A program made the translations under genes and the position numbers. A DNA stretch of 63,868 nucleotides, counting the filler, from Blastocystis sp. subtype 4 (lineage: Eukaryota), in the NCBI RefSeq assembly GCF_000743755.1. It is 12 parts of 12 records of this genome, joined end to end, with 100 filler letters (N's around TTAATTAATTAA, not from the genome) between each part and the next. Parts side by side here need not be neighbours in the genome. Positions count along the whole stretch, not along the records: positions 44,123 to 49,942 come from NW_014569060.1; 11 more parts are not named here. One strand, written 5' to 3'. This document shows, piece by piece, positions 5,271 through 49,942 of this stretch (positions are counted from its first letter, which is position 1; each line of letters begins with the position of its first letter). The notes beneath the pieces are model-generated. The model saw only the letters and a list, made by a program, of their open reading frames with translations, did not search any database and was not told where the DNA came from.

Positions 5271-5955
5271 AGGTCTGAGACCTAGCATGCACATCGGAAG
5301 CTACGGCGCTGGGTGCCGTGCTTCCTTGTGGTGATGCAATAATTGTGTGCTAAATGGTAGAGAAAATGATCAAGATGTGGGATTAAGAAGAACAGAATGC
5401 TTAATAATGTATACTAATTTACTTTGATACTAATATGCATTGATTATTAACTGGATAGAAAAATGGAAGATGGCTGGAGTGACGGGTAGTTTTAGAAAGT
5501 TTTATATAATATGCCAAAATGGAAATCGACCCATTTTTACCTTTCCATTTTGAAAGAGTTTTATGAAATCCACCCGTCATCCATCACTCCGTCACCTTTT
5601 AAGCCCATGATCAAGCCAAAAGATGGACCTATTTAAAGGAAAGGTGACGGGTTGATTTTGTCGTTTTCCATTTCCCCATACCAATTCATTTTGATGCAGT
5701 CATCCATCACTCAATCATCTTCCGTATTTCTATCCAGTTTTATGAACAACAAATTAACCCATATTTTCGGTCACACATTTGGTGGTTGTTCTTCACCCTG
5801 TTTGCTGTACCATCTTTAGTGTTAGAGAGTTTGTTTTACTTTGTTCACACCATTTAACCATTTTCTTTACCATTTAGCATACAATTATTGCGTCAGCACA
5901 AGGAGGTGCAGTGTTTGCGCTGCGCCCTCTGCAGTGCACGCTTGGCCTCAGGTCT
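5271..5955. mobile_element. Non-autonomous repeat-A derivative with two inverted, diverged hairpin ends and GTGACGGG-type iterons
   Basis: 5271-5470 is an imperfect inverted copy of about 5720-5955; both arms end in the A-type double hairpin; no ORF and no obvious TSD. Confidence 0.8.
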
Positions 5956-5984
5956 CTATACATCTTACAATGAACATTTTCAAT

Positions 5985-6692
5985 CCAACTTATCAAAATC
6001 GATAATACAAAGGCGTCTTATCACGCTTTCTTCAAAACACATTTTTCATTCATTCTTTCATATTTCATTCATATTCACATTTCTATTCGAATCATACTAT
6101 CCAAACATCCTTATTCACACTTCTATCTTCTCATCTATTCTTATCTATCACCAACCTAATCATCTTAGGCTGGTTTTCATTCCCTTCTTTACTCATCCCT
6201 TTCAATGATCGATTATCACTTCATTCATTTCTTGATAGTAAACAATCAGATTCACACTACCTTGTAATAGACTCGATTGTTCTTAACTTTCCCGAGGGGA
6301 CATCTTCATCTTATCAACCTCTAATCTGTATTCTTATGGTTCTCTATCATCTAACAACTATGTTCTCTTCTCATGATTTTGGTACTCATCATCTACTCTC
6401 ATTCACACAATGTCTCTTTCAGAACGGTGTCTCATCCATATACTCGGTCACCATTAGGACGTAACTTATGAATGTGTAATGGTACCATTCTCAGGGAAGC
6501 TTCGTGTTGCCAGGGTGTATGGTTGATTTGATGAAGAAGTCACCCTACTATTCTCCAACAGGAATAGTGGTTGGATTCATGAGCTGTCAAGCAATCACTC
6601 GAGACTTGGGCCACTCGGGAACTAGTCCGAGGCCTCGCAGGTATGGACGTTAAGTGCCCTCTAGGGCATCTATGTAGCGTGTATAGTGTTTA
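5985..6692 (+). repeat. Repeat B copy 1
   Basis: Homologous to 37126-37861 and 42659-43270; ends GGACGTTAAGTGCCCTCTAGGGCATCTATGTAG...AGTGTTTA. Confidence 0.9.
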
Positions 6693-6734
6693 ACAATAAC
6701 CCTTCCTTCATTGTCAACAAATAAGTCCAGTTTA

Positions 6735-12149: not shown

Positions 12150-13231
12150 TCCATTTGTTTGTTCAAATACAAAGATGATTGATTTCTAGACCTATAAGTG
12201 ATTATCCACTAAATGTGTTGTTCTGTTGTGTGTAGAGTCGAGATCAGACAATCAACTGATGATGTGATTCATTGTATGATACCAACATAATGAATAGGGA
12301 TAATCTGTGAATCTTGAATTCTCAAGTTGAGTGATAATATGACTGTTTCTGAAGAGATTATGATGAATGATAACAGAAGATGTGGTAGTAGGAAGTGATT
12401 AGTTGAAGAGGTCATGAGACATCATATTCATAATACAAATGGAATCATTTGTTGTTTCCCACCTCATAACAGCATTTGTATAAGAGAATGAAGTACAAAA
12501 ATGATGTAATGATAATGGAATGATGGATATAGATGAGATGATGATGATAACAGGATTACAAACAATCACTAACAATGTCAAAATGCATACACTAGATGAT
12601 AGTATGTGAAGATATTGAATGGTATATGTGAGTAGAGATAATCCCTTCAAAGAATGATCTCAACACATACAACTTCCATTCATTGATCCTCCCTCAGATT
12701 GTTCAATTGTTCTATTGATATGATAACAAACAAAAAGGAGATATCATCCGAATTGGAGTTAGGAATGGTGATGAGGATGGACAAAGTGTCACAAACATCG
12801 TATTACCATCCCTTTGATCAGATTGGATGAATCCATGAGGGATCAGAATACATGAACTCAATACAAGATAGAGACAAATACAATACAATCTGGAATCAAC
12901 AAGAGTAGATTGAAGAAATCCAAGGAATGAGTGAAATGAAATGTAAGAGAAGCCATATCTGTTCTGACTTCATTGATGCATTTTGCCTTTGAATGAAGAT
13001 GAAGAACTGTATTCGATTAAGTGAATAAGTGATAAGTACTTTGATAGCAGATGGTGAATGAGATTGAGTGAATGATATAGTTGATATCATTCCAGATAAT
13101 ATCGATTTGACAATCAATAGTGTTGTAGTGAAGATCGATATCACTTCACATACTTGTGATAATCATTTCATTATTGTGTGAATCAATAGATATCTCTTTT
13201 AGTAATCATGTTTGTAACAAACTCATCATAC

Positions 13232-15491: not shown

Positions 15492-15615
15492 AGGAGTTCG
15501 TATGAGTGATTTGCGTTCGGTTCAGTTTGATGTGCGTGATCGTCATGGTGAAGTAGTATCAATCGCTTCAGACATCTACATCAACATCCGATTGAATGTG
15601 AACGGAAAGGTTTAA
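15492..15615 (+). CDS. C-terminus of Polinton/PLV-type minor capsid (penton)-like protein
   Basis: GVRMSDLRSVQFDVRDRHGEVVSIASDIYINIRLNVNGKV*; homologous to 29965-30085, 46330-46677 and 49590-49942. Confidence 0.6.
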
Positions 15616-15648: not shown

Positions 15649-15689
15649 TAATGGGAAGGTTTAAGCTGTTGATTATTCACTTTGTGTGA

Positions 15690-16514
15690 GGAGTAGTTTT
15701 GGAGTAGGTTCAAAAATACAACCTACTCCACATTTCATTCAAAAAGGCTCATTAAATGGCTTATTTATAGGGATTAAATCATTTTGGAGTAGGAGGAGTA
15801 GGAAGAGTAGGTTGAAAATTCAATTTGACAAAATGTTTTGGTAGAATTCTTCTTAAGAAATAGAAAACCAACCTACTCCAACATCAAATAATCCTCATAA
15901 TCAAGCTAATTTATGGGCTATTCTAAAGGAATTTGGAGTAGGTTTGATATTTGAGACTACTCTTGAAACCTACTCCAAGTTTCTCCAACCAATATGTAAT
16001 CGATTATACTAATCCCTAATAACAAGGATATGTTGAATAGTTGCTCCGCAGTTGCTCTGCAACCATTGATCTTTGATCAATTCGTTTAATGTGTTAAACT
16101 CCAAATTCTCCACTTCACTTCATTTCTCAAAAGTCTTTAAAGATCGACACCCATGCCCATTTATCAACACCCTTAAAACATCCTGCTAAATCTATTTGTT
16201 ACCCCATAATAAGTACCGATTATATTCTTGCATATATAACTGAATACAATCATGGTACTATTGAGTCATTACTTAACAACTATCTCCCGTATTTCTATTC
16301 AGTTATATGAACACCAAAATTAGACCATATTTTGGTCACAGTTTTAGCGTTTGTTCGTCACCCTGTTTACGGCACCATCATTTGTGTCAGAAAGTTTGTT
16401 TTACTTTGTTCATACCATTTAACTGATTACTTAACCATTTTGCACACATTTATTGCGTCAGCTCAAGGAGGTGCGGCGCCGCGCCCTCCGCAGAGCATGC
16501 ACGGCCTCAGGCCT
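15690..16514 (+). mobile_element. Repeat A copy (GGAGTAGG iteron array + terminal GC hairpin)
   Basis: Many GGAGTAGG/CCTACTCC words; ends GCGTCAGCTCAAGGAGG...GGCCTCAGGCCT. Confidence 0.9.
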
Positions 16515-16657
16515 CAACTCATTTTAATGTAACATTCGTCAATTACTACTTGAATAAAAGTGTCTGGGTTAAGTAGCTGTATGATTCTTATTGTTAATGT
16601 GGCAATCAATTACTCTCACAAAACAGAAGAATAACTCAGGATACTACTTCAACACTC

Positions 16658-19600
16658 TTACTCTTGAGGATCATACTTGTTCATCAATACGTTCGCTTTC
16701 TTTATGAATAACTCGTCTCGTTCAACAAGATTTCCATATTCTAGTTCGCTGTTCTTACCACCAAATCCGCGTACTAAATTGTATTTACCTTTTCCTGTGT
16801 GTGTCATGTTTGCCATTTTGCGAGCTTCTTCTTTGGGATCTGCTTTCTTGAACAGTACTCTGCCTTTTGCCTTGCCACCTTCCCACATATCATTTGCGAA
16901 GTCTTTAACCTTTTCAACCGTTGTCTGTTTCTGTATCGTATCTTTGTGGGCTTCAATATCCATTTCCAATGCTTTTATACAGTTCTTCAATGCAATAGTA
17001 CATTTGTTCACTTCTTCCCATGGAGTCATGTTGTTTTCTGGATTCACTTTTTGATCTCTTATATCCTTTCCACCAAAATGGGATGCATATTCAAGTTGTT
17101 GAAGATCTCTGACCAGTTTTCTTGTATCATCCACGTATTCTCTCACAATGAAGTAGGCTTGAAGTGTTTTGGATACATTATCTCATGATTAGTCACTCAT
17201 GATTCCATTACCATATGAAGGAGTGTCACTCTTCCAGAAAGGTCCTCCTCCGTTCTTGGGTACTCTCAATGAAACCGAATCAAGAGCTGGAACATCTACT
17301 TTTCATATTGCCACCATATTACTACTTTTAATCCAAACAGTTCTTGGATTCTCAAAAGAACCAGACTCACTGACGGACTGAATCACTTTGAATTCTGGAA
17401 GACCTACATGTTTTAATAACCTAAATGCTACAATTCAGTAGAAGAGAACATGAATAATCCTGAGCACCATACAAGGCTTTCTCCCCCAAGTAAAGCGTAC
17501 GCAGACTGTCCAAACCTAGTTGACACTAATACTTCTTCTCCTACTGTCCAAAACCGTTTCAGTTGAATGGTAGAAGGATTCACCTCCAAGATCGATCGTC
17601 TTCAGCGATGGCAAATCTATGATCAACAGTGGATTAAATATGAACTCCTCAATATGAAGGAAGCATGATAAAAGTTGCATGATTTCTTGTGTCTGTCACC
17701 AATTGTCAGATGTTGAAGGTTATCAAGATCTTCCAGAATGAACTCTCCGTAATCACTGAAACTGAAACGACCAATTGAAATCGTATCCAACGACTTGCAT
17801 TCGGTGATGGAGAATGATTTTCCTTCATCGCCTCCTCCATTTGGAGATTCGGTAAATGAGTTATCTCCTATCTCTACAGTCTCTAATAAAGGAAGATTAG
17901 ACAATTCAAAAGATTTGACTCTCAAACAACAACCGTCTCTAATAATAACGTGTTTCAACTGGAGGTATATATTGTTCCACTTAAATGACATCAATTCAGT
18001 GCAGCTATTGTCTTCAACGTAAAGAATGGTCACCTTCTCAGTGACCTTCTTTTTCCCATCGTAAGTAACCTTTAATCCATTCTTATCAATAACATCATTA
18101 TGCTTCTTCATCGATTCCTCGATTATCTTCTCGATCTCTTTTTCCAAGGTGTCAGTTAACAATGTTTCTTTACCATCCACTAGATGAGTCGCACTTTTGC
18201 ACTTCTCTTCAAAACCCTTCATTGCTTCATATTTGATTTTGTTCAATTTGACTGCAAACTCCTCACTATCCATGCTATCATCTGAAATGATGTTATCTGC
18301 TTCCTTCTTGAAACTCTACACAACACTACTCAAATAACACAATACATNTCCTTCAATGTCAATGGTCTTCTGCAGGTGCTCTCTGTATCGAGTTTGCAGT
18401 TTATCACTGCCCTTCTTCTTCTCTTCAAACAACTTCCATGCAATATCATTGGCCTTCTTATGGATTGCTTCCAAGTCAGTATTGCCATACACCATATCTG
18501 GGCGAATTCTCTTATTCATTTCTCGTTTATACATCTACTACTTAATTGAATATCATTCACCAACCTCACAACATTCATCAACAAGCTGACTCAGCTTTGC
18601 CATATACAGATTGTCCATGATGCTATTCGTATCTGGGAAATGCTTTTGTTCCATAAACAAATGAGCTTGTTGAACTGCAAATCTACTCTTAATATCGTTT
18701 CATTCACTCACTCAACAAATGTTTTGACAGTGATTGTTTCACCTCCAATCTTTCTTGGTTCAATTCCTTTTCTCACTCCATCACCTTGAATCACTCGATC
18801 AATGTAGTAACTCAACATTTGCATAAACTGAGGTTTGATTTCAGATATGGATCCTTCATAATCCAAATTCATAACATCTTCTCCAGGAGAAGGAAAACAG
18901 AACATATCGAATTCATTAAAGCATTCCTCAATCTCTTTCACTTTGAATGCATCTTATTCAGTCTATTTATACCCAATTGAATTCCTTGCTCAATACTAGT
19001 TCTCTTACCGTAGTTTTCAAAATCACGAAGGAGAAAGTCCAGATGCTGAAATGGTTTACCATCCTTCTTAGATACTTCCTTACTAAACTTGGAAAGAACA
19101 GAGAATTTCTTCAATTGATCTGTATTCATATTGCCCTTCTGATTGAAGATTGCATATGAAGATATAAGAGAACTCAACCCGAAAATACTGCAATTGAACT
19201 CATTCTTTGTATCTAAATCCCATAATCCTTGAGTGTCCATCAACAGAATGCAGATCCTCTCTCCATTCTTTCGAGTGATAACAAAAGGCTTATTCCAAAA
19301 CAAGATTCCTCGAGTATTCCTTTCTGTTCCAGGGCTGATTGATTTGATGTTTGACTTCTTCGTTTCGACATTCTCCATTGTGTCAAAGTCTTTAATCTTA
19401 TTGCCTTCTGCTAACATCCATCGTGGAATACCATTGTCAGTTAATGTCATATCCACATGACCTTTCTCTATGGTTTACGAACCGTATTGATGTCTCACTT
19501 CTGAGTTGTTCTAAATAGAGATTCAAGAAGTACAGAAAGAAGGATTTCCCACTTCGAGAAGGACCCATAATACAAAGAACTCCCACAGGAAGGTCTTCAT

Positions 19601-19871: not shown

Positions 19872-20640
19872 AGGCCTGAGGCCAAGTATGCACCTCCTTG
19901 AGCTGACGCAACAAATGTGTGCAAAATGGTTAAGTAAACAGTCAAATGGTATGAATAAAGTAAAACAAACTTTCTAATACTAATGATGGTGCAGTAAACA
20001 TCGTGACGAACAAACGCTAAAACTGTGACCAAAAATTTGGTCTAATTTTGCTGTTCATATAACTGGATAGAAACACGGGAGATGGTTGTTAAGTAATGTG
20101 TCAATAATACCGTGATTGTATTCAGTTATATACGCACGAATTTATTTGGAGTTTATTATGGGGTAACAAATTGATTTAGCAGGATTGTTTTAAGGATGTT
20201 GATGTTTAAAGACTTTTGAGAAATGAAGTAAATTGGAGAATTCGGATTATTCAACCAATGGATGATACCATTGTTATTAGGGATTAGTATAATCGATTAC
20301 ATATTGATTAGTTCATTATGAGATTAACAATAATGGAGTAGGTTTCAAGAGTAGTCTCAAATTTCAAACCTACTCCAAATTCCTTTAGAATAGCCCATAA
20401 ATGAGCTTGATTATGAGGATTATTTGTTGTTGGAGTAGGTGGAGTAGGTTGGTTATTCTATTTCTTAAGAATTCTATCAAAACTTTTTGTCTAATTGAAA
20501 TTTCAACCTACTCTTCCTACTCCTCCTACTCCAAAATGAATGAATCCTATAATCAAGCCATTTAATGAGCCTTTTTGAAGGTAATTTGGAGTAGTATTTT
20601 TGAACCTACTCCAAAACTACTCCAAAACTACTCCAACAAA
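19872..20640 (-). mobile_element. Repeat A copy, directly downstream of the primase-helicase gene
   Basis: Inverted homolog of 15690-16514; hairpin partly deleted. Confidence 0.9.
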
Positions 20641-20694: not shown

Positions 20695-23600
20695 TCAAAC
20701 TTCACAATCACATACATGCAACAAGTTATAGACCACAAGATTATTACATTTTGTCGGACATTTTCTTATATACTGTGGATACTTCGATAGTTCTAACATG
20801 AATGATTTTGCACTTAGTTTATATCCATTATGATAGCTGCAACAGTAACTGTTAAACGCTTGTCCCAGACTTTTTGCAGGAATCATATATCCCTCAGTAA
20901 TGTATCTGATTGCTCTTCTTTGCTTATATTTTGACGTACAATACACATCAATCTCCGTGTCATCTTCAGATAATTGTTGAAGCCATTCTTCAACTGGATC
21001 AACAGATGCATCAATAATGTTCTGCATATATTCAGTGTCTTGGATTTCCAAGATATCTTCATCTGTGTATCTGACTTTGTTAAAGTAATTGTACAAACCA
21101 TGGCTGCTTCTTCCAAACATCGATTGTCTTAGCAAAGAAAGGCTGAGTGATGTATTGATCAGGCATGAAGTTTAAAGCACTAAATGCATTAATTCGAGCA
21201 TTACCATTAGCAACATCAAATGAAAATCCATTTGCATTGTTTGTTGTAGCAATGATTCGACTACGCATTGTGTATGTATAAGCTTGAATGTTCTTTCTGT
21301 TAGCAACCCTGTGTTTAGTACCATCAATGTAACTCTTCATCACATCAACGATATCTTTGCCAAATTCGGAAGCACGAGCTTCATTGATGTTCACAAGCAA
21401 TGTATTCTCAAATGGAACTCGATGAGCTCCAAGCAAATCATCCCTATTATTACATTCAACCACATATTCATCACCAATTATCTGACTGATCATTTTGATC
21501 AACAATCCTTTGCCTTGTCTGCATCTACTGTAGAATAGAATGCCAACAGGCAACAAATTAGCAGGATCTTGAATCATTTGAGCTACAAACTTCTTCACAT
21601 ATTCACAATATAATATATCACCAGAAATGTTGAGCATTGCCAAGATATAGATTCTCATGAATATAGGATGAAAGTTGATGTACATCTTCATCTGATCTGT
21701 TAACGCAGGAATCATGTCCATGAAATCATTGATCATAGGTACATATTCAGATAGATCAGGAACAGGATCAGTTGAACGAATATCTGGATTGTATCCTTTG
21801 AATGTGTTAAGCACTTTCTCACCAGTTGAAGGATCTCGTATCACTTCAACTGAACCACCACCAACTTTGTTGCATGGAATGAAATCTGCTCTGTTAGCAA
21901 CTCTTCTGATATTGAAATATGCATTGATAGCATCAATAGTTGGTTCTTTTGGTCCCTTGATGTCTTTGTCTTCGAAATATGATCTTGTCCCATAGATCTT
22001 ACCGATATTCTTCCATGTACCAACAATATCACTGTTTCGTTCAATATGTCCATTCACATAGCATGAATTGACAGGCGTTTGTAAGAACACAATTCGCTGT
22101 GATAGATAGCTCTTAATAATACTGATTGTCTTATTTCTATCTTTCCTATACTCATCTTCACTATCATAAGCACCAACACCTGGCTTCTTCATGTATCTCT
22201 TACAGATCTTCATTAATACCCAATCCTGAACAATCGGAAGATCTGCATCTCCACGCATGACCTCAGTATCATCATCAATTTCGTCATCACTGAAATCACA
22301 AATCGCATTCAAATCATATCTTCCATATTTCTCAGAACAGAAATCATCATAGAATGAAGGATTTGTATCTTTCACAATCTTCATCACAGTACCCATTGTA
22401 TAGATTTGATCTCGATCTGTCTTATATCCATTGTAGTATGTTTGTCTGAATGAATCAATATCATTGTTCTTAGGACGTCCAATGATTTGATTCCATTTCT
22501 CACAAACAATCTCATAACAGCCCATCCTTCATCATAATCATCTGTATCTTCAAAGTTTCTTGCAACTGCAGTGATTATAGGCAATTTGATTGTAGTATAG
22601 ATTCCTTCTGTAATAACACTGTAGTATAGATTCCTTCTGTAATAACACTATCAGGAATATGATCAAGCAGATCACGAACTTCTTTAACTGTGAACTTTTG
22701 ATGCTCTTCATTGTTTGATATTTCATCATGCTCTGTATTGTTTTTAACATCGTTAACACAGCTGTAAGCTGTGTTTAAAGATGGTTGTACTTGTTTGATA
22801 TTATCATTTGATGATGGAGGTTCAGGAAGTGTAAATCCTTCAGGAAGTTTAAAGGGTAAAATCTTGTTCTTATCAAAATCACTAAACACTGGTTGATCAG
22901 AATAATCAACATATTCATCTCTCAAAATGCAATCTGTGTATTTTGAATAATCAGCATCACCAAATTCTTTATCACCCAATTCAACGATATCAAATGATGA
23001 ACTAGTATAACTATCTTCTTCCATATCATAACATAGATACATATGACTTTCAGGCTTACAACTTCCATCTATCCAAAACACTCGTTTAGCGCCAAACATA
23101 CATTTATCAACAATTCTTTCAACATTGCCATAGAAGATCTTCTTAACTTCAATATCATTGATGATGTAGTTATATGTTGCTTCACGATGTTCATCATCTG
23201 TAAGTGCTTCAAGAATAATATGTGCTCCATGCTTATAGAGTTGCTTTGCAACATTTTGAGTGCTACTCAAATCTCCACATTGATATGGTGGTCTGATATA
23301 CAGATTGCTGTTGGTAGAGAACATTTCACACAATCGCTTATTGAATTGTTTGAATTGTTCTATTGGAACATCTTCAGATCCATTAGAATAATCCAGATCA
23401 ATACAAATCTTTCTTTTGCCTGTAAGAACAATACCAACAGCTACTGTATTTGTATATTCAATATCACAGTAATCTGCATGCCATTTGATAGCATACTGGA
23501 TAGATAGATTGTTGAAGAATTCATTCTTATCGTTTGGAACGTAAAATCCCATAGGGACTAGTTGTTTGTTGGGAGTACCATACCATACACACGAACATAG

Positions 23601-23758
23601 AATTGATGTTTATCTATTACAGTTTTTGGTTCACTCTTATAATAACATCCATTATTCCCATTTAAAAAGGAATGTAGATAATTAATTAGAGGATTTGCAA
23701 TTTGTTTTTCTTTGCTATTAGTAGGATTAATCGTTGTTCTATCAATTGTATCGCTCAT
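20695..23758 (-). pseudogene. Viral-type AEP primase - SF3 (D5-like) helicase - C-terminal winged-helix fusion, about 1000 aa, intronless, at least four frameshifts
   Basis: KICIDLDY, KHGAHII, VDKCMF..WIDGSCKP (AEP); VLNTFKGY, SRCRQGKG (Walker A), VNINEA (Walker B), IIATTNN (motif C); IPAKSLGQAFNSYC..SAKSF. Confidence 0.85.
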
Positions 23759-23859
23759 TTACTTATAGTGGAATAATCTATTAATTGATTATTTCACTTA
23801 GAATTTGATGATTTAGTTTTGATTCACAAAGTGACTGCAAATCTATGATTTGCTGGGTA

Positions 23860-24008
23860 GTTAGTGTAGTAGTTAGTATAGTAGGTTACAAAGAAGTAGG
23901 CTACTACACTTAATCCCTCATAAACAAGCTTGATTATGGGGGTATTCTTTAATTTATGAGGGTTTAACTGACTTGTTTATGAAGGTGTAGTAGGTGTAGT
24001 AGCCTGTT
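23860..24008. promoter_or_regulatory. Second iteron array (GTAGTAG type) upstream of the primase gene, cut by contig end
   Basis: GTAGTAGG/CTACTAC words around the scaffold CCTCATAAACAAGCTTGATTATGGG shared with repeat A. Confidence 0.6.
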
Positions 24009-29964: not shown

Positions 29965-30085
29965 AGATGTACTGATATGAAGCGATGGACACTACTTCAC
30001 CATGACCATCACGCACATCAAACTGAACCGAACGCAAATCACTCATATGAACTGCACATACATTCAAATGACTAAACGAACATAC
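29965..30085 (-). pseudogene. Penton-like gene fragment
   Basis: Reverse complement of 15492-15580 (HMSDLRSVQFDVRDGHGEVVSIASY). Confidence 0.6.
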
Positions 30086-30826
30086 AAAGTGAAGCAACAA
30101 CAACAAAACGACATCATTCAATACTACAATGCCAATTTCTTTGTTCTAGCAGCAACTTACCACAACTAACTGCTTGAGTTTGAAATCCTCCCACACCATT
30201 CAATGATTCGTAGGCTTTTCCCTTATTCTCTGTTTCTTCTGCTAAATCATTTGTAATGCGATCATCATACTCTTTGGAAGATAATCGTCCCTTTCACAAA
30301 TAAACGACTCTCATTTATATTTGTCATAACATGAGATTCACCTATTCAATCACACTCCTATGTGGTAAGAAAACAGATGATCTAAGACAATGAAGTTTTC
30401 GAATGAGCATCAAGAGAAAAAAATGTATCGATGACATTCAATCATTAACATAGAATACAATAGAATGGAAATAGATAGGAGTCTGTTTATCACATCCAAA
30501 GCATGTATTCTAATTCTATCATGTATCAATATATATGATCCTGTACTATGCAGCAGATATATCATATTGCTTCAATACTCTGTATTCACTCTTCTTGTCT
30601 TTCTTATCACAATTTGGTCATTCAATTAACAGATTAGTTTACAAGATAATTGTATAGTTACTGCCTAAAAGAGAAGTTGAAAGAAGGAGATTGACACGAG
30701 CAATGAATCAGAATATAGAAACTGGTGAATTACATTACTTTCATGAATAAAGTAGAATGAGGGATAGAGAATGACGAAAAACACTCACTTCATGCACTAT
30801 TACTCTTTTTTTGAACCGACAAACCC

Positions 30827-34147: not shown

Positions 34148-34315
34148 AAAATGTCTGCCTTTTCGAGCTTGTTTATGGGCCTTTTTGTCTGCATTTTCGT
34201 GGCGTTTTTGTCTGGTAGGGTTAAGCGTGTATAGCTACCCAGGGTTAGAGGCCCATGTTTGCGACGGTTTGTCTGGATAATAAAAATACGTAACATACGT
34301 CAATTATCTACTGCT
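34148..34315 (-). mobile_element. Repeat C (Polinton-like terminal repeat), cut by contig start
   Basis: Reverse complement of 43938-44022; outer end AGCAGTAGATAATTGACGTATGTTAC. Confidence 0.7.
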
Positions 34316-34989
34316 TCTTCATCTTGTAATTGACCAGTTATTCTTGTTTATGGTTCTTCGTCCTCGGACCTTATTACGGTTTTATTGAATATTGGTCATT
34401 GCTTCTTGAATCTTGGTTCCTTTGGTTCCTTTGGTTCCTTTGGTTTCTGGATCTCGTAACCAGTTTCTTGGTATTTGGTTTGACTCTTGGTCCTTCAAAC
34501 TTGATTCTTGGCTTTCAGCTGTTATTCATTTATCTTCCTTCTTTGGCTCCTGATTTTGACTCTCGAAGTTGTTATTGACCACTAGTTCTTGATAATGGTT
34601 CTTTGTCCCCAGACCTGAGTGTTGGTTGTAGTACCTGGACCTTGGTTCCTCGTGTCGGTCCTTGATTCTTCATTCTTATGTCTTGGTTCTGGATCTCCGA
34701 CTCCTAATCATTGCTTCATGTTGTATTAATCATAAATGGTTCCTTCTTGACCTTGAGCCTTACTCATATTGACTCATTAGTTTTCATGCTGGCTCATTAT
34801 GTGGTATTGCCAAATGGTTCACGTCTTCGTCCTTCACCCTCGGACCTTAGTATCTTGGAGTCTTGGTTCGGTATATTGGATTCGCTCATAGTACTTGGTT
34901 CTTGATCCTTTGTTAGTTGGTTATGGTTTTGGGATCTTGAATCTTGGTTCTATGGGTCTCGCTCTTCGGTTCTGGTTTCCACTCATGGC

Positions 34990-35255: not shown

Positions 35256-35659
35256 GGTAATGGTTCATGGTTCTTTGGCGATTGGTGATGATACTGATAT
35301 TGGTATTGGTATCAGTATCGGTGTTGGATTCCTGTTATCATAGGATCGGTTCTCGATCCTCAATATGGATTTTGGGTCGTTTTGTTTATATGGATTGTTT
35401 TGGGAGTTTTATACAGGAGTTTTCTGTCTTCGGGCTTTTCTCCTATAGTTTCCTCCCTTTATCAGCAAGACTTGTTTACCGACCCTTTTGTCTTTCTCCT
35501 TGAGTTCACCTTTTTCATTCCATGGTCTCATGGAGTGTGCTTTTTGTTTTTGGTTATGTTTTTAGTTGTTTTTTGGTTTTACTTGAGGAGTTTTTGTGCG
35601 GTGAAATAACCGTCAGTTGCTTGTTGGTAGTAGACAACAGGGATTCAGGATATCTTGTG

Positions 35660-36044
35660 TAGTAGTGTTGTTTATTTCCTGAGGGACTTCATGATCTTAT
35701 CAGGCTCTGTTCTGGATTCCTTGAGTTTGCTATCATGTAAGAACTCTGTTCTCTTGTGATTGAAATGGTGTTCATCGACTATCTCAAATTAGACTATGTG
35801 GTACGGTATGGGAAGAATGTCTATTTGAGATAATGTCACCTGATGATGAGTGTTTCAAGGGTGGTAATGATACTACTCTTCTTTGGTTGGTATCTTGATT
35901 TCCTTTCAGGGAATCACCCTAATCTCTACAATCGCTGGAGATTAGTCTCAGGAAAGAGTCCGAGACCTGACGATATGGACGTAAAGTGCCCTCTAGGGCA
36001 TCTATGTAGTGTTTAAAGTGTTTAAAGTGTTTAAAGTGTTTAAA
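35660..36044 (+). repeat. Diverged repeat B copy with (GTGTTTAAA)4 tail
   Basis: GGACGTAAAGTGCCCTCTAGGGCATCTATGTAG; tail 36009-36044. Confidence 0.8.
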
Positions 36045-36117: not shown

Positions 36118-36862
36118 TGTGATTGCGAAATTTGATAAGATATTTGTGATTCTATTTAACTATGATACTTGTGAATGCAAATCATAGATTACTAATGGAG
36201 TAGTGTTGGAGTAGGTTTGGAGTAGGTTCAAAAATACAACCTACTCCGGAATTCCTTCAAAATGGCTTATAAACTGGCTTGATTATAGGGATTAATTCAA
36301 TTTGGAGTAGGAGGAGTAGGAAGAGTAGGTTGAAGATTCAATTAGACAAAAAGTTTTGGTAGAATTCTTCTTAAGAAATAGAAAACCCAACCTACTCCAC
36401 CTACTCCAACCTACTCCAACATCATATAATCCTCATAATGAAGCTAATTTATGGGCTATTTGTAAGGAATTTGGAGTAGGTTTGAAATTTGAGACTACTC
36501 CTGAAACCTACTCCAAGCTACTCCAATCAAATTGTATCAATCATTACTGAATGCAATCACGGTATTATTGACACATTTACTTAACAACAACTGCTATGCA
36601 GCTATTTAATCTACGATTAAATCTCCCATATTTCTATTCAGCTATATGAACACCAAAATTATACCATATTTTTGTCACAGTTTTAGCGGTTGTTCGTCAC
36701 CCTGTGTTACTACACCATCTTTTAGTGTCAGAAAGTTTGTTTTACTTTGTTCATACTATTTGACTGATTACTTAACCATTTTGCACTCCTTCTTTAGCGT
36801 CAGCTCAAGGAGGTGCGGCGCTTGCGCCGCGCCCTCCGCAGAGCACGCACGGCCTCAGGCCT
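36118..36862 (+). mobile_element. Repeat A copy retaining the last codons of the primase-helicase (CDCEI*)
   Basis: TGTGATTGCGAAATTTGATAA matches the CDCEV* end at 20695; then iterons and the full hairpin. Confidence 0.9.
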
Positions 36863-37125
36863 CTTCACATACTCTATGCATCATATTCAACCGCCTTTCA
36901 TACCTAACTCTACATTCCATTCATATTCTGACAATACTGCAGGTTTCATCTCTCAGACACTCAGCTAAGCTTCAATTCTTATACTTCAATTCAAACCGCT
37001 TTCATCACTCATGCGAAATATACTATCCAATACTACAGATCTTACTCACAACTTGATCTCCACTAATACTTCGAACTTCATCCTTTCTATAATACCATTC
37101 AATTATACATCTTACTACTAATCAA

Positions 37126-37861
37126 ACCAACTTACCAAAATCGATAACTCAAATTGTACATGTCTTCTCACTTTCTTCAAAACACAGCTTTCTTTCATTC
37201 TTTCATATTTCATTCATATTCACATTTCCATTCTAATCATACTATCGATACGTCCTCACTCACACTTCTCTCTTTTCTCATCTGTTCTTATCTGTACTCT
37301 TCTATATTACCAACCTAATCATCTTAGGCTGGTTTTCAATTCTTCATTCCGTTCTTTTAGTCATCCCTTTCAATGATGGATTACCACTTCATTCACTTGT
37401 TGATAGTAGACAATCAGATTCACAGTACCTTATTCATAGACTTGATTGTTTTTAACTTTCCCGAGGAGACATCTTCATCTTATCAAGCTCTAATGTGTAT
37501 TCTTATTCTTCTCTATCATGTAAGAACTATGTTCTCTTGTGATGATTCTGGTATTCATCATCTACTCTCATTGAGACAATGTCTCTTTGAGAAGGGTGTC
37601 TCTTCGAGATACTCGGTCACCATTAGGACATAAGTTCTGAAGGTGAAATGGTACCATTCTCAGGGAAGCTTCGTGTTGCCAGGATGTATGGTTGATTTCA
37701 TGAAGAAAACACCCTACTATTCTCCAAGAGGAATAGTGGTTGGGTTCATGAGCTGTCAAGCAATCACTCGAGACTTGGACCACTTGGGAACGAGTCCGAG
37801 GCCTTAATGATATGGACGTTAAGTGCCCTCTAGGGCATCTAAGTAGTGTTTAAAGTGTTTA
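37126..37861 (+). repeat. Repeat B copy 3
   Basis: Homologous to 5985-6692. Confidence 0.9.
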
Positions 37862-39263: not shown

Positions 39264-42200
39264 ATGTCTGTTATTCAAGTAGAATCGATGGAGATAATGA
39301 ATAGTAGTATATCGAGAGGTCAAAGCAAGGAAAACTGATGGTAAGTGAAGATTGTCTCCGTCGGTTGTTGAGCGATGTAGTATTGTCATGATGAGTTGAT
39401 TAGAAGGATATAGCGAAATTGGATGTGGCAGTACTGGGTATTATGGGTCCATCTCGAAGTGGCAAATCACTATTTCTCAACTTTGTGAGACTGTATCTGG
39501 ACAACCTGGAGAGTATGTATTCAAGAGGGAAAGAATGTATAGAACAAGGAAGGAGTTATTCAAAACTGAGAATACCAGATGTACCAGAATGGATGACTTC
39601 TGAAGGCGACCAAATCAGCGGATTTGAGGTTAACGGAGGAACAATAGCGGTAACAAAGGGTATTCTCTTTTGGAATAAGCCATTTATCATTCGTCGCCCT
39701 AATGGAAAGAAGATGTGTTTGTTACTAATGGATACTCAGGGATTGTGGGACGACAATACTGATAACTATTTCAACTGCTGTATCTTTGGACTAAGTTGCG
39801 TGATATCATCCTATGTTATCTTCAATCAAAAGAGGAATATCAATTCAGAAGAGCTGAAGCGATTGGCCGGTCTTTCGATGTTGAGCAAGGAAATGGTATG
39901 TGATGGAAGGAAGAAGACGTTTCAGAAACTCGATATTCTGTTACGTGACTTTGAGAATCTGAGTCTCCGAAATGATACTGTAGCTACTTGTGAGATTAAG
40001 AGCAAGAAGCGATTAGATCAATTGCGAACCAAAGTTGCTGAAAGAGAGTCATTTGGACAAGTTGAGTCGTGTTTCGACAAGGTGGATGTCGTATGTTCGT
40101 TTGATCCAGGAGAAGATGTCCGAGATGTCGACTATAAAGGATTGATATCTCAGATCAGACCCAAATTCTTGCAATTGTTGAGCCAGTATATTGAACGTAT
40201 TGTGAGAGATATTGAGCCATTGAAGGTTGATGGAAGGGATTTGAAGTGTGAAGAATTTGTGAAGTGGAAGAGAGAATGGAGAATAAGATATAGGTTTGCG
40301 ACTGAAGAAGCGGATTTCTTTGGAAAGTGGAGTCATTGTCCAGATATGGATGACTCTCTGGATTCTGTTTATAAGAGTGAGATGGAGAAGTTGGTAGATG
40401 AAGCGTATACCGTTAGTATGTTCTTGATGAATGAGGAGTAGAAATACACCAATGACTTGTTCTTGATGGAAGGAGGAATATGTGCAGATTCTCTCTTCTT
40501 GGCCAATGGTAAGGTGCGAGATGAATCGATGCAAGTGGGATTGATTGGATGTGATAATGGGAAGTGTATTGTGGATGTAATGAAAGATGTCGATGTCTCC
40601 AACTTCAATCCATCGGTTCAGGTGTCATTGAGTAGTAGAGTGTCTAGTGCCAAAGAAATCGGACTGAAACATTTCCAAGAGAAGGCAAAAGGGAGTATGA
40701 ATCTGAGAAGAGAGTATGAGCGATTGTTGAAGAGTAAGATGGATGAAAAGGCAACAAATCTTCGATCAGATTGGAATCAATTTGAACAATCATGGACAAG
40801 AGTTTGGAGAGTGGGAGTGTATAGGATAAATGATCCTTAGTGGTATAGAAGAACAATGGAAGAAACAATTCAGATTCCAAATCAAGATTATGCTACATTT
40901 GAAAACAAAAACAAGAAGGCGAAAGAGCAGGCGCTAACAACAATGAAGAATGAATGCAGAGGATTGGAGTACATTTGCATCTACTATTTAGCTAAGGATA
41001 AGAAGATATGGAGAGGGCATGTAAATATAATCAATACAATGACAAAGGGGCTTGACAGACAATATGATCGATATAAAGGACTGTATGAGTCGTATGTGAA
41101 ACTCAATGGATTATCGATGGTTCTACAAGGAGATGATGAATGGAACGAGCGGAACAGATACATTACGAGTCTGAGAGTGGCTTCTGGAAGTGGAAATAAA
41201 CTATCTCAATTTGAACTTGTCAACTATGATCGGCTGAAGGAGATAATCATTGAGGACAACTGCTTTGAGAGAGTCATCAAATTCAAATTGGATCATTTGA
41301 CAAGACTGGAGAAGTTGGTTGTTGGAAAGAAATCATTCACAAGAGGAGAGTATGTGAATAAGATATACTATACCGACACGAGTTTCATCATCACGAATTG
41401 TCCATCATTGACACTCATTGATATTGGTGAATGTAGTTTTGCAGAGTTTGGTGGAGAATGGAAGTTGAGTGGATTAGAGAAACTGAAGAAGTTGAGAATA
41501 ATAAGTGAAGACCAAGAGAGTTACAACTTCAACGGTTCTCCATTTGTGATAGAGGGTGGAGTCATGTGTGTAACTGATTAATGATAGGTCTACCTAATCT
41601 GGAAGTTATCGAATTGGGATATAATGCCTTTATTTGGGCCTCTGAAATACGTTTAGAAAGTAGGATGAAAGAGAAGTTGAATAGTAGACTTGAAGAATCT
41701 TGAAAGGATTGAGTTGAATACTTGGGCACTTCAAGGTACTACAAGAGAAGAGAGAGCATGTACTTTAGCGATGATAAGTATGCAATGATAAACGAATTGA
41801 GAGTAGATTTGCCAAACTTATATACGATACGAGCGAAAGGGACATGCAACTTGACGCAACCACGAGAAGTGACCTTACGAAGTAGGTTTCAATGAAGAAT
41901 AAGACGATAGACGTTCCATTAGTGAGAACTGTGGACTTGCATAATCCATTCCAAGAGTGCAAGAGCAAAGAGATTGGTGATAATATTGAAGAAAGATAAC
42001 GAATAGGCAATGTTGGCATTGGTTTACGGTCATACTTTGTAATGAAACAATTGAAAAGTGAAATGAATGAGCTGTTGAATCTGGATGATTATGGATACGA
42101 GAGTAGTTCTGCTAGGGAAAGTATTCAGAACTGCAAAGAAGAACAAAGAAACTATGATATCACTTGTCATTCAGGATATGATGTGATGCGCAAGTTGAAG

Positions 42201-42548: not shown

Positions 42549-42658
42549 TTGATTAACAAGAATGAATGAGTGGTGTTGAGTGATGGTAAAAATAGGTGGG
42601 TAAAAGTGTCATTGGAAGTGTTAGGGGTAAGAATGAGTGTGTTTAGGGTTTAGGGTGC

Positions 42659-43270
42659 TAAACACTTTAAACACTACATAGATGCCCTAGAGGGCAATTA
42701 ACGTCCATACCTGCGTAGGCCTCGAACTAGTTCCCCAGTGGTCCAAGTCTCGAGTGATTGCTTGACAGCTCATGAATCCAACCACTATTCCTCTTGGAGA
42801 ATAGTATAGTGATTTCATGATGAAATCAACCATACGCCCTGGTAACACGAAGCTTCCCTGAGAATGGTACCATTTCACCTTCAGAACTTACGTCCTAATG
42901 GTGACCGAGTATCTCGATGAGACACCCTTCTCAAGAGACATTGTCTCAATGAGAGTAGATGAATACCAAAATCAACACAAGAGAACATAGTTCTAACATG
43001 ATAGAAAAGAATAAGAATACACATTAGAGCTTGAGTAGATCAAGATGTCTCCTCGGGAAAGTTAAGAACAATCGAGTCTATCAACAAGGTACTGTGAATC
43101 TCATTGTCTTCTATCAACAAGTGAATGAAATGGTAATCCATCATTGAAATGGATGACTAAATAAACGGAATGAAAAAGTGAAAAAACCAACCTAAGATGA
43201 TTAGGTTGGTAATATAGCAGATTGTAGAGAAGAGTATAGATGAGGATAGATGAGGATAGATGAGAAGAGG
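42659..43270 (-). repeat. Repeat B copy 4, abutting (TTTAGGG)2
   Basis: Reverse complement of 37270-37861. Confidence 0.9.
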
Positions 43271-43937: not shown

Positions 43938-44022
43938 AGTAGTAGTGTTTTGACGCATGTTACGTATTTTTTTCATCCAGACAAACCGTCGCAAACATGG
44001 GCCTCCAACCCTGGGTAGCTAT
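43938..44022 (+). mobile_element. Repeat C (Polinton-like AGTAGTAGT terminus), cut by contig end
   Basis: AGTAGTAGTGTTTTGACGCATGTTACGTATT...CCAGACAAACCGTCGCAAACATGGGCC. Confidence 0.7.
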
Positions 44023-46329: not shown

Positions 46330-46677
46330 GCTAGAAATGATTCGTGGAAGAGATGTTTGGTTCATATATGACATTTACAGAAGACAGATATGCACATCAT
46401 CAGGAATTGGTTATAATCTAGTGTTTCAACAAGCTCCTTATTTATGTCCAATATTGATACTTGATGAGATTCAATCAAATGATGTGAACCAAATAGAACC
46501 AGTAGATCTATCAAATGGATTGAACTGTATCAGAATCTATCGTAACCTGATTCGATAGATGATTCCATTTGAAACAAGTCTATTAGTGGATTGTATGATC
46601 TACTCAACAACGGGATTGAACAATGTGTGGTCGTTTAGTTATTTGAATATAGGTGCAGTTCGTATGAGTGATTTACT
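46330..46677 (+). pseudogene. Penton-like gene fragment
   Basis: LVFQQAP...EPVDLSNGLNCIRIYRNLIR*MIPFETSLLVDCMIYST...VRMSDL. Confidence 0.6.
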
Positions 46678-49489: not shown

Positions 49490-49589
49490 GGAGTGTTTGT
49501 TCTATTGATAGCAATGTGGGCCTCAGTTGAGAATGAGTCTGTACATATTCTAATATCAGGACGCACACATGATTATCGGCAACAACAGT

Positions 49590-49942
49590 AAATGTTTGAA
49601 GCGATTGATACTACTTCATCATGACGATCACGCACATCAAACTGAAACGAACACAAATCACTCATACGAACTCCTGGCATGTTCAAATGACTAAACAAAC
49701 ATTGTTCAATCCCATTGTTGAGTAGATCATACAATCCACTAATGGACTTGTTTCAAATGATATCATCTGCTTTACCAGATTACTGTAGATTCGAATCCAG
49801 TTCAATCCATTTGATAGATCTACTGGTTCTCTTCCTTTCACACCACTTGCCTGAATCTCATCAAATCCCAATATTCGACTCAAATCAGGTGCTTGTTGAA
49901 ATACTAGATCATAAGCAGGACCAGAAGGATGTGGATATCCAT
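49590..49942 (-). pseudogene. Penton-like gene fragment (best preserved)
   Basis: APDLSRILGFDEIQASGVKGREPVDLSNGLNWIRIYSNLV...VRMSDLCSFQFDVRDRHDEVV. Confidence 0.65.

What the first reader, a model, noticed from the sequence alone, without database searches (positions are those of the whole stretch)
49590..49942. Four scattered fragments of a penton-like minor capsid gene
Seen: homologous intronless pieces at 15492-15615, 29965-30085, 46330-46677 and 49590-49942. The consensus reads LSRILGF..PVDLSNGLNWIRIYSNLV..MSDLRSVQFDVRDRHGEVV..IYINIRL. From my recall of the family pattern, this matches Polinton/PLV single jelly-roll minor capsids (LGF; beta-strand then D-x-x-G). The copy at 15492 lies about 75 bp from an A iteron array. 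Inference: the element family is, or was, virion-forming.
Basis: partly seen in the sequence, partly recalled or inferred. Interest (0 to 1): 0.7.

Follow-up and report, generated by a model that had tools for sequence, protein, structure and literature searches.

The report
Viral penton relics in gut protist
These are broken copies of a gene for a predicted capsid-corner (penton) protein from a Polinton-like DNA virus integrated in the genome of the gut protist Blastocystis, and the intact gene sits between palindromic repeat arrays that likely helped it spread separately from the rest of the virus.

Summary
The four pieces, plus a fifth at 12999-13148, derive from an intronless 227-codon gene. 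Its predicted fold is a single jelly-roll with an insertion; best matches are the mavirus penton (Foldseek E 3e-6) and MELD-virus proteins. The window is 12 unplaced Blastocystis contigs joined by linkers. The pieces lie on four of them, and two end at contig edges. Intact copies in gut metagenomes are under purifying selection (dN/dS 0.05-0.16). Three lie beside an A32-like ATPase and a 1024-1139 aa multi-domain penton paralogue. A 56% relative lies with an RVE integrase and pPolB-like gene, and relatives occur on 27-31 kb contigs. In 5 of 5 loci with both flanks, the near-identical penton gene is bracketed by palindromic iteron-like arrays. The same arrays bracket a broken AEP-SF3 primase-helicase gene in the window and lead to one shared element end. 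No major capsid gene, and no integrase of the window's lineage, was found; target-site duplications could not be tested. Verdict: decayed endogenous Polinton-like virus with cassette-like organisation. A Blastocystis MELD virus is already in print, so novelty is moderate.

The parts
49588..49942 (-). Penton gene piece, codons about 98-216; frameshifted near 49700, truncated at its 3' end beside a host aldo-keto reductase gene, cut by the contig edge at its 5' end
   Evidence: 95% nt to the intact copy in L003; tblastn; contig bounds
46331..46684 (+). Older penton gene piece, codons about 84-197, with an in-frame stop and a frame break
   Evidence: 83% nt to L003 over 46347-46674
29966..30086 (-). 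Penton gene piece, codons 178-217, truncated on both sides
   Evidence: 89% nt to L003
15492..15615 (+). 3' end of the penton gene, codons 188-227 plus stop; starts at a contig edge and may be the tail of an intact gene
   Evidence: 98% nt to L003
12999..13148 (+).
   Evidence: 80% nt; tblastn E 9e-8
15674..15992 (+). Palindromic iteron-like array, type A (GGAGTAGG/CCTACTCC units in both orientations)
   Evidence: self reverse-complement score 77 vs shuffle maximum 44
16000..16515 (+). Terminal segment ending in the shared element end
   Evidence: six ends align up to one sharp boundary and then diverge
19872..20634 (-). Second element end plus array A; the same host flank carries an end followed by the penton gene in L003
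20698..23758 (-). AEP primase-SF3 helicase gene, broken into several frames (breaks near 23582, 22510-22620 and 21080-21130); intact relatives are about 1000 aa
   Evidence: 99% to P0125; DUF5906 E 7e-9; phrog_1156 primase E 4e-12; motifs
23839..24008 (+). Array type A' (same layout as A, changed repeat unit), cut by the contig edge
   Evidence: 89% to the array downstream of the penton gene in L005; A/A' alignment above 200 of 200 shuffles
36118..36863 (+). Element end: short remnant like the replicase 3' tip, array A, terminal segment
43394..43934 (-). Element end with internally deleted terminal segment and array A
5367..5956 (+). Element end preceded by a third, more diverged array-like segment also seen at the left of L008

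Best explanation
The pieces are decayed copies of an intronless 227-codon gene for a predicted single jelly-roll penton (minor capsid protein) of a Polinton-like virus family integrated in Blastocystis, and the gene was likely over-amplified because it lies between palindromic repeat arrays next to the element's ends. Shown: homology of the pieces; an intact ORF under purifying selection; a penton-like predicted fold; linkage of intact copies to an ATPase with A32-type motifs and to a long penton paralogue; arrays on both sides of the penton gene and of the AEP-SF3 gene; one shared sharp element end. Inferred: the protein would form the pentamer at capsid vertices. The arrays would be binding and origin sites for the primase-helicase. 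Deletion or recombination between arrays and ends would give short non-autonomous elements carrying only the penton gene, moved in trans by an integrase of a complete relative. Inserted copies then decay and are spread further by duplication of the repeat-rich host regions (LRR and Ig-domain gene families) in which they sit.
For: Fold: Foldseek PDB ranks 1-6 are the mavirus penton, E 3.3e-6 to 5.5e-5, next entry 7e-3. VIA top four: PBCV-1 capsid chains (Z 10.5, rmsd 6.7, 190 aligned; Z 9.4, rmsd 3.3, 123 aligned), mavirus penton (Z 8.2, rmsd 3.5, 123) and Sputnik (Z 7.8, rmsd 3.6, 118). BFVD top hits: a 236-aa MELD-virus protein (E 2e-16) and a 996-aa MELD 'putative penton' (E 4e-10). ESM Atlas neighbours score 0.97 and are viral clusters. 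Selection: dN/dS 0.08 (L003/L010), 0.16 (L003/L006), 0.05 (L006/L007); ATPase 0.07. Context: ATPase upstream in L003, L008 and L010 (3 of 10 window-type loci, motifs in 117); long paralogue with three penton-like stretches (profile E 2e-27 and 7e-30); the 56% relative L006 carries RVE (Pfam 33.2 bits, cut-off 32.6), KilA-N-like, DUF5906 and pPolB-motif genes. Of 42 listed members of three related clusters, all are full length and 10 have a longest contig of 26.9-30.7 kb, none longer. Integration: the fibre-like gene and the ATPase are named on one 571,055-bp Blastocystis contig, three locus tags apart; penton copies are on 485-kb and 816-kb contigs. Arrays flank the gene in 5 of 5 loci with both flanks (L003, L004, L005, L008, L009). 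Three window ends lie at different positions in paralogous host sequence.
Against: No major capsid gene in any of the 12 loci or the window, and no integrase or pPolB in the 10 window-type loci. No target-site duplication could be shown; the two flanks of L009 share only 2 bp. The model is middling (pLDDT 68, pTM 0.59, 8 sequences), TM-scores to mavirus are 0.33-0.37, and non-viral jelly-rolls (nucleoplasmin Z 6.8-7.0, Kex2 Z 7.0) are close behind. There is no sequence-level match to Pfam, PHROGs or PDB. Four of the five window pieces have no array on their contig. In 5 of 10 window-type loci the gene start is not preceded by an array (L010-L014). Penton-only elements rest on short-read contigs that must cross 325-bp repeats; L005 has low cover and a cut left end.
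Confidence: 0.8

Rival explanations
1. The family is modular or multipartite: virion module, penton cassette and replicase cassette are separately maintained array-bounded segments that share one terminus and complement each other.
For: Both the penton gene and the AEP-SF3 gene are bracketed by A/A' arrays. All 20 AEP-SF3 relatives found have longest contigs of 3.0-6.5 kb. One is on an 8,787-bp contig of a named Blastocystis assembly. L008 runs from an array-like left end through the virion module to A' without polymerase, integrase or MCP. L006's replicase is flanked by its own small inverted repeats.
Against: Short contigs are what flanking repeats produce in short-read assembly. L010 joins ATPase and penton with no array. 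A replicase member and a fibre member share a longest contig of 9,606 bp, hinting at one molecule. Relatives assemble as single 27-31 kb contigs.
Confidence: 0.1
2. The host keeps and expresses intact penton cassettes, for example to interfere with capsid assembly of the related active viruses.
For: Cluster P0005 has 408 members and 7 of 15 listed are exactly 227 aa. Intact copies differ by only 2-6 nt changes. Contigs of two RNA runs cover parts of the gene.
Against: All five window pieces are incomplete and copies of 80-98% identity show continuous decay. Intact copies lack the host's polyadenylation motif downstream. The RNA contigs do not show transcription and may be DNA.
Confidence: 0.06
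3. The protein is a cellular jelly-roll protein (for example nucleoplasmin-like) caught in a transposon-like repeat.
For: Nucleoplasmin and other cellular jelly-rolls score Z 6-7.
Against: Only the mavirus penton passes E 0.001 in Foldseek PDB. The gene is intronless, has viral-type neighbours and relatives on virus-sized contigs. No prokaryotic genome hit.
Confidence: 0.03

Closest known systems
Blastocystis MELD virus and rumen MELD viruses (Starrett et al. 2021, PMC8502044)
   Same: Same host genus. [quoted passage not shown] MELD-virus proteins of 236 and 996 aa are the best predicted-structure matches, mirroring the short and long penton pair here.
   Different: Only 26% identity to the best MELD protein, and which MELD genome it comes from was not shown. 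The window lineage is integrated, fragmented and linked by arrays to an AEP-SF3 replicase. The section read reports no chromosomal copies, arrays or mini-elements.
Polinton-like viruses with AEP-SF3 replicases (PMC11161782; bioRxiv 10.64898/2026.10.13.758929)
   Same: SJR minor capsid, packaging ATPase, AEP-SF3 replicase. The preprint describes repeats separate from the TIRs that bracket replication genes.
   Different: Here the same arrays also bracket a virion gene, and that gene is the most scattered part in the window. MCP and integrase were not located.
Mavirus penton (PDB 6G41/6G42), Sputnik minor capsid (3J26)
   Same: Single jelly-roll with an insertion; top solved-structure matches.
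   Different: 227 aa against about 300-360 residues; 8-14% identity; no virophage-type MCP found.
PBCV-1 pentons P1 and P1v1 (PMC9617893)
   Same: A short penton and a long variant with large insertion domains in one virus, as for the 227-aa and 1024-1139-aa paralogues. PBCV-1 chains are the top VIA matches (that they are P1 and P1v1 is my inference from length).
   Different: PBCV-1 is a giant virus; which paralogue sits at which vertex here is untested.
Polintons/Mavericks sensu stricto (PMC4028283)
   Same: Penton, ATPase, long terminal repeats, chromosomal integration; RVE, pPolB-like and protease-like genes in relative L006.
   Different: The window lineage shows AEP-SF3 and no pPolB or RVE in the loci held; TSD not shown.

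Membership tests
SJR penton / minor capsid protein of double jelly-roll viruses | Single jelly-roll fold with an insertion between strands | tested here: met
   Model pLDDT 68; strands at 6-47 and 145-225 around an alpha/beta insertion; mavirus penton E 3e-6, Z 8.2-8.7
SJR penton / minor capsid protein of double jelly-roll viruses | Forms a pentamer at five-fold vertices | not testable with these tools
   The complex tool takes at most four copies; no complex prediction was obtained
SJR penton / minor capsid protein of double jelly-roll viruses | Encoded near the MCP gene | tested here: inconclusive
   No MCP recognised in 12 loci of 1.3-14.3 kb; the 27-31 kb contigs could not be fetched
Polinton-like virus | A32/FtsK-like packaging ATPase linked to capsid genes | tested here: met
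   434-aa ORF upstream of the penton gene in L003, L008, L010 with Walker A, Walker B, GRH and Q motifs; motif pattern recalled; Pfam gives only weak P-loop hits
Polinton-like virus | [quoted passage not shown] | tested here: inconclusive
   Not found in window or loci; loci are partial
Polinton-like virus | Own replicase (AEP-SF3, PolA-SF3 or pPolB) | tested here: met
   AEP-SF3 gene at 20698-23758 shares arrays and ends with the penton cassette; linkage on one molecule is not shown
Polinton-like virus | Terminal inverted repeats with a sharp end | tested here: met
   One shared end at five window sites and in L003, L005, L009; both orientations in L009
Polinton sensu stricto | RVE integrase | tested here: inconclusive
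   Present in 56% relative L006; not in the 10 partial window-type loci
Polinton sensu stricto | Protein-primed PolB | tested here: inconclusive
   Motifs A, B, C in L006 but no Pfam or PDB hit; not in window-type loci
Polinton sensu stricto | Target-site duplication (5-6 bp, recalled) | tested here: inconclusive
   Only L009 has two ends and its flanks share 2 bp; no whole genome held
Blastocystis host gene | Introns, or stop codon completed at a TGTTTGTT motif | tested here: not met
   Continuous ORFs with full stops and no motif within 60 nt in 7 of 7 gene ends examined

The most novel reading that the evidence does not exclude
The commonest eukaryote of the human gut carries a modular Polinton-like virus system in which the penton gene and the primase-helicase gene ride on separate iteron-bounded cassettes with a shared terminus; penton-only mini-elements act as satellites or capsid-interfering defectives of a widespread, undescribed family of roughly 28-kb gut viruses, with iteron variants (A, A') setting replicase specificity.
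Probability: 0.2. Interest if true: 0.8.

Novelty: new variant of a known kind. Interest (0 to 1): 0.5.

Why it matters
Blastocystis is described as the most common microbial eukaryote of the human gut (PMC10690189), and a 2026 review calls its sequence-based viral records uncertain in source (PMC12835684). This finding ties a Polinton-like virion module to Blastocystis chromosomal contigs and points to several clusters of intact relatives on 27-31 kb gut contigs, which are candidate Blastocystis viruses (host inferred). A capsid gene bracketed by origin-like arrays would extend the mobile-replicase-cassette idea to virion genes and make it testable in a culturable host. It also flags unannotated viral DNA: about 12.7% of this window's bases are element-derived, although the window is made of repeat-rich unplaced contigs.

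Tried and rejected
No whole genome was held, so copy number, complete elements and TSDs could not be counted. Viral-contig scans with the fragment (two short weak matches, L001 and L002, dropped as chance), alignment A3 (29), ATPase (49), helicase (50), pPolB-like ORF (65) and the terminal pattern (75) gave no relative. Genome-contig scans (55, 76) gave none. Sequence searches against PDB, Pfam and PHROGs did not name the penton, ATPase, pPolB-like or protease-like ORFs. The single-sequence model of the 1139-aa paralogue was unusable (pLDDT 30) and was not searched. The Atlas search for the 190-aa ORF gave only scores under 0.9. No complex prediction was obtained. Contig depths are higher over the penton 3' part and the arrays, but contig depth cannot rank genes, so I did not use it. 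RNA-run contigs do not show transcription. That the same host flank carries the replicase end in the window and the penton end in L003 could mean inversion between repeats or an assembly switch; identity falls from 100% to about 90% inside the repeat, and this is unresolved. Earlier scan findings: none.

Full report
Window and host. The window is 12 contigs of 4.0-8.5 kb joined by identical N-linkers, so distances across linkers mean nothing. It holds eukaryotic genes: CDC20, PRP6-like, aquarius, OCRL-like, HSP70, aldo-keto reductase, GBP-domain and Ig-domain genes. The closest named homologue of the fragment is a Blastocystis hypothetical protein at 95%. No whole genome was held.

Observation. 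All four pieces are present and far above chance, and a fifth lies at 12999-13148. They are 98, 95, 89, 83 and 80% identical in DNA to an intact copy, which suggests copies of different ages. The five pieces lie on four contigs; the 15492 and 49942 ends are contig edges. The array beside the 15492 copy is real: 31 of 31 occurrences of its 8-mer are in four arrays, and it is self-complementary beyond 100 shuffles.

The gene. The natural full-length protein is 227 aa (P0005, 408 members). A profile search found 75 proteins at E up to 0.001, mostly 210-270 aa or fragments, plus five of 806-1121 aa. The model from an 8-sequence alignment has pLDDT 68. Foldseek on PDB gave six matches at E up to 0.001, all mavirus penton chains. 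VIA ranked two PBCV-1 capsid chains, mavirus penton and Sputnik first among 48,161 chains; adenovirus chains follow in the second look, among non-viral jelly-rolls at Z about 7. In BFVD the top two are MELD-virus proteins. No sequence library names the family. Intact copies are intronless with full stop codons, and dN/dS between diverged intact copies is 0.05-0.16. Window pieces against L003 give 0.27-1.31 on few codons, which is uninformative alone.

Context in 12 gut-metagenome loci (10 window-type, 2 of a 56% relative). Upstream of the start codon there is an inverted array A in 5 of 10 window-type loci, the ATPase directly in 1, a decayed third penton-like ORF in 3, and other sequence in 1. 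Downstream, seen in 5, there is array A in 3 and array A' in 2. L003, L008 and L010 carry a 434-aa ATPase with A32-type motifs (pattern recalled) and a divergent 1024-1139 aa protein with three penton-like stretches; L008 adds a 314-aa fibre-like ORF (my reading of its composition). L006 carries RVE integrase, a pPolB-motif ORF, a protease-like ORF (motif recalled), KilA-N-like ORFs and an 809-aa helicase fusion. All 42 listed members of three related clusters are full length, and 10 reach contigs of 26.9-30.7 kb. In the window-type cluster 7 of 15 listed are 227 aa; short contigs can also cause truncation. The fibre-like gene and ATPase are named on one 571-kb Blastocystis contig. Of 24 sequencing runs listed, 14 hold half or more of the ATPase-penton words, and those with a stated habitat are rodent metagenomes. 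No major capsid gene was found.

Element anatomy in the window. One sharp end occurs five times (5956, 16515, 19872, 36863, 43394) and in L003, L005 and L009. Three window ends lie at different points in paralogous host sequence, which suggests independent insertions into one repeat-rich region. On the contig of the 15492 piece, an AEP-SF3 gene lies between array A and array A'. It is 99% identical to a 1013-aa protein with 368 members but broken in several frames. Contigs from four other runs cover it. A and A' share a layout with a changed repeat unit.

Mechanism. Shown: the homologies, predicted fold, selection, linkage, bracketing and shared end. Inferred: vertex pentamer; arrays as replicase binding or origin sites (by analogy with iteron origins, recalled); penton-only derivatives mobilised in trans; later spread by host duplication, which fits the four pieces without arrays. 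Confidence is about 0.9 for a viral penton relic, about 0.5 for the hitch-hiking step taken alone, and 0.8 for the statement as hedged.

Literature. PMC8502044 (passages and section 3.4; its supplement is cut and gave no hit) reports a Blastocystis MELD virus with PolB, integrase and divergent virion genes. PMC12835684 (passages) calls those annotations uncertain. PMC10120064 (passages; supplement rows) screened 10 Blastocystis assemblies; the genus appears only in its input table within the stored text, which is cut, so results tables may be unseen. PMC10690189 (passages) showed no viral elements in the matched passages. bioRxiv 10.64898/2026.10.13.758929 (passages and one section) describes repeat-bracketed replicases. 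PMC11161782, PMC4028283, PMC9617893, 10.64898/2026.06.19.733378, 10.1101/2022.05.25.493380 and 10.1101/2024.03.23.586382 were seen as passages. Searches listed no paper describing chromosomal copies, arrays or penton-only elements in Blastocystis; most listed papers were seen only as listings, preprint supplements were not seen, and subscription papers are not covered.

Verdict. The finding is a decayed endogenous Polinton-like virus in a host genus where such a virus is already reported. The array-bracketed penton cassette is the part I did not find in print. Interest 0.5.

Noticed in passing
window 1-63868: The window is 12 contigs joined by N44-TTAATTAATTAA-N44 linkers, apparently an unplaced-contig pseudo-scaffold.
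   Followed up: yes
window 20698-23758 (-): Broken AEP-SF3 primase-helicase between two array types; relatives form at least 20 clusters at 43-99% identity, all with short longest contigs.
   Followed up: partly
L011 595-1350, L013 1268-2002, L014 1766-2378: A decayed third penton-like ORF lies directly upstream of the penton start (profile E 5e-10 in L011).
   Followed up: partly
L006 11050-11560 and 14130-14313: The 809-aa helicase fusion of the related virus is flanked by its own small inverted repeats, alongside a pPolB-like gene: two replicases in one genome.
   Followed up: partly
window 34148-34316 and 43938-44022; L004 1047-1338; L009 5332-5566: A separate repeat, probably a hAT transposon end (L009 has a hAT dimerisation-domain ORF next to it), abuts array A at two different points.
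   Followed up: no
window 5957-6695, 37104-37861, 42656-43250, 35620-36025: A multi-copy host segment near MORN/LRR-type genes follows three element ends at different offsets, suggesting a preferred insertion region.
   Followed up: partly
window 17474-19474 (-) and 39404-41578 (+): GBP-domain GTPase genes followed by LRR-like repeats; the first is wedged between two element ends.
   Followed up: no
window 49694-49701: The frame break in the 49 kb copy coincides with a TGTTTGTT motif on the gene's strand; probably chance.
   Followed up: no
window 19872 flank and L003 4106: The same host flank leads into the replicase end in the window and into the penton end in L003: inversion or assembly switch.
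   Followed up: partly
L009 295-759 and L008 2068-2376: HNH-endonuclease-like ORF (phrog_959, E 9e-5) inside the left part of L009; a short ORF in L008 may be similar.
   Followed up: no
window 16661-17182 (-): 174-aa open frame without Pfam or PHROGs match just outside an element end.
   Followed up: no
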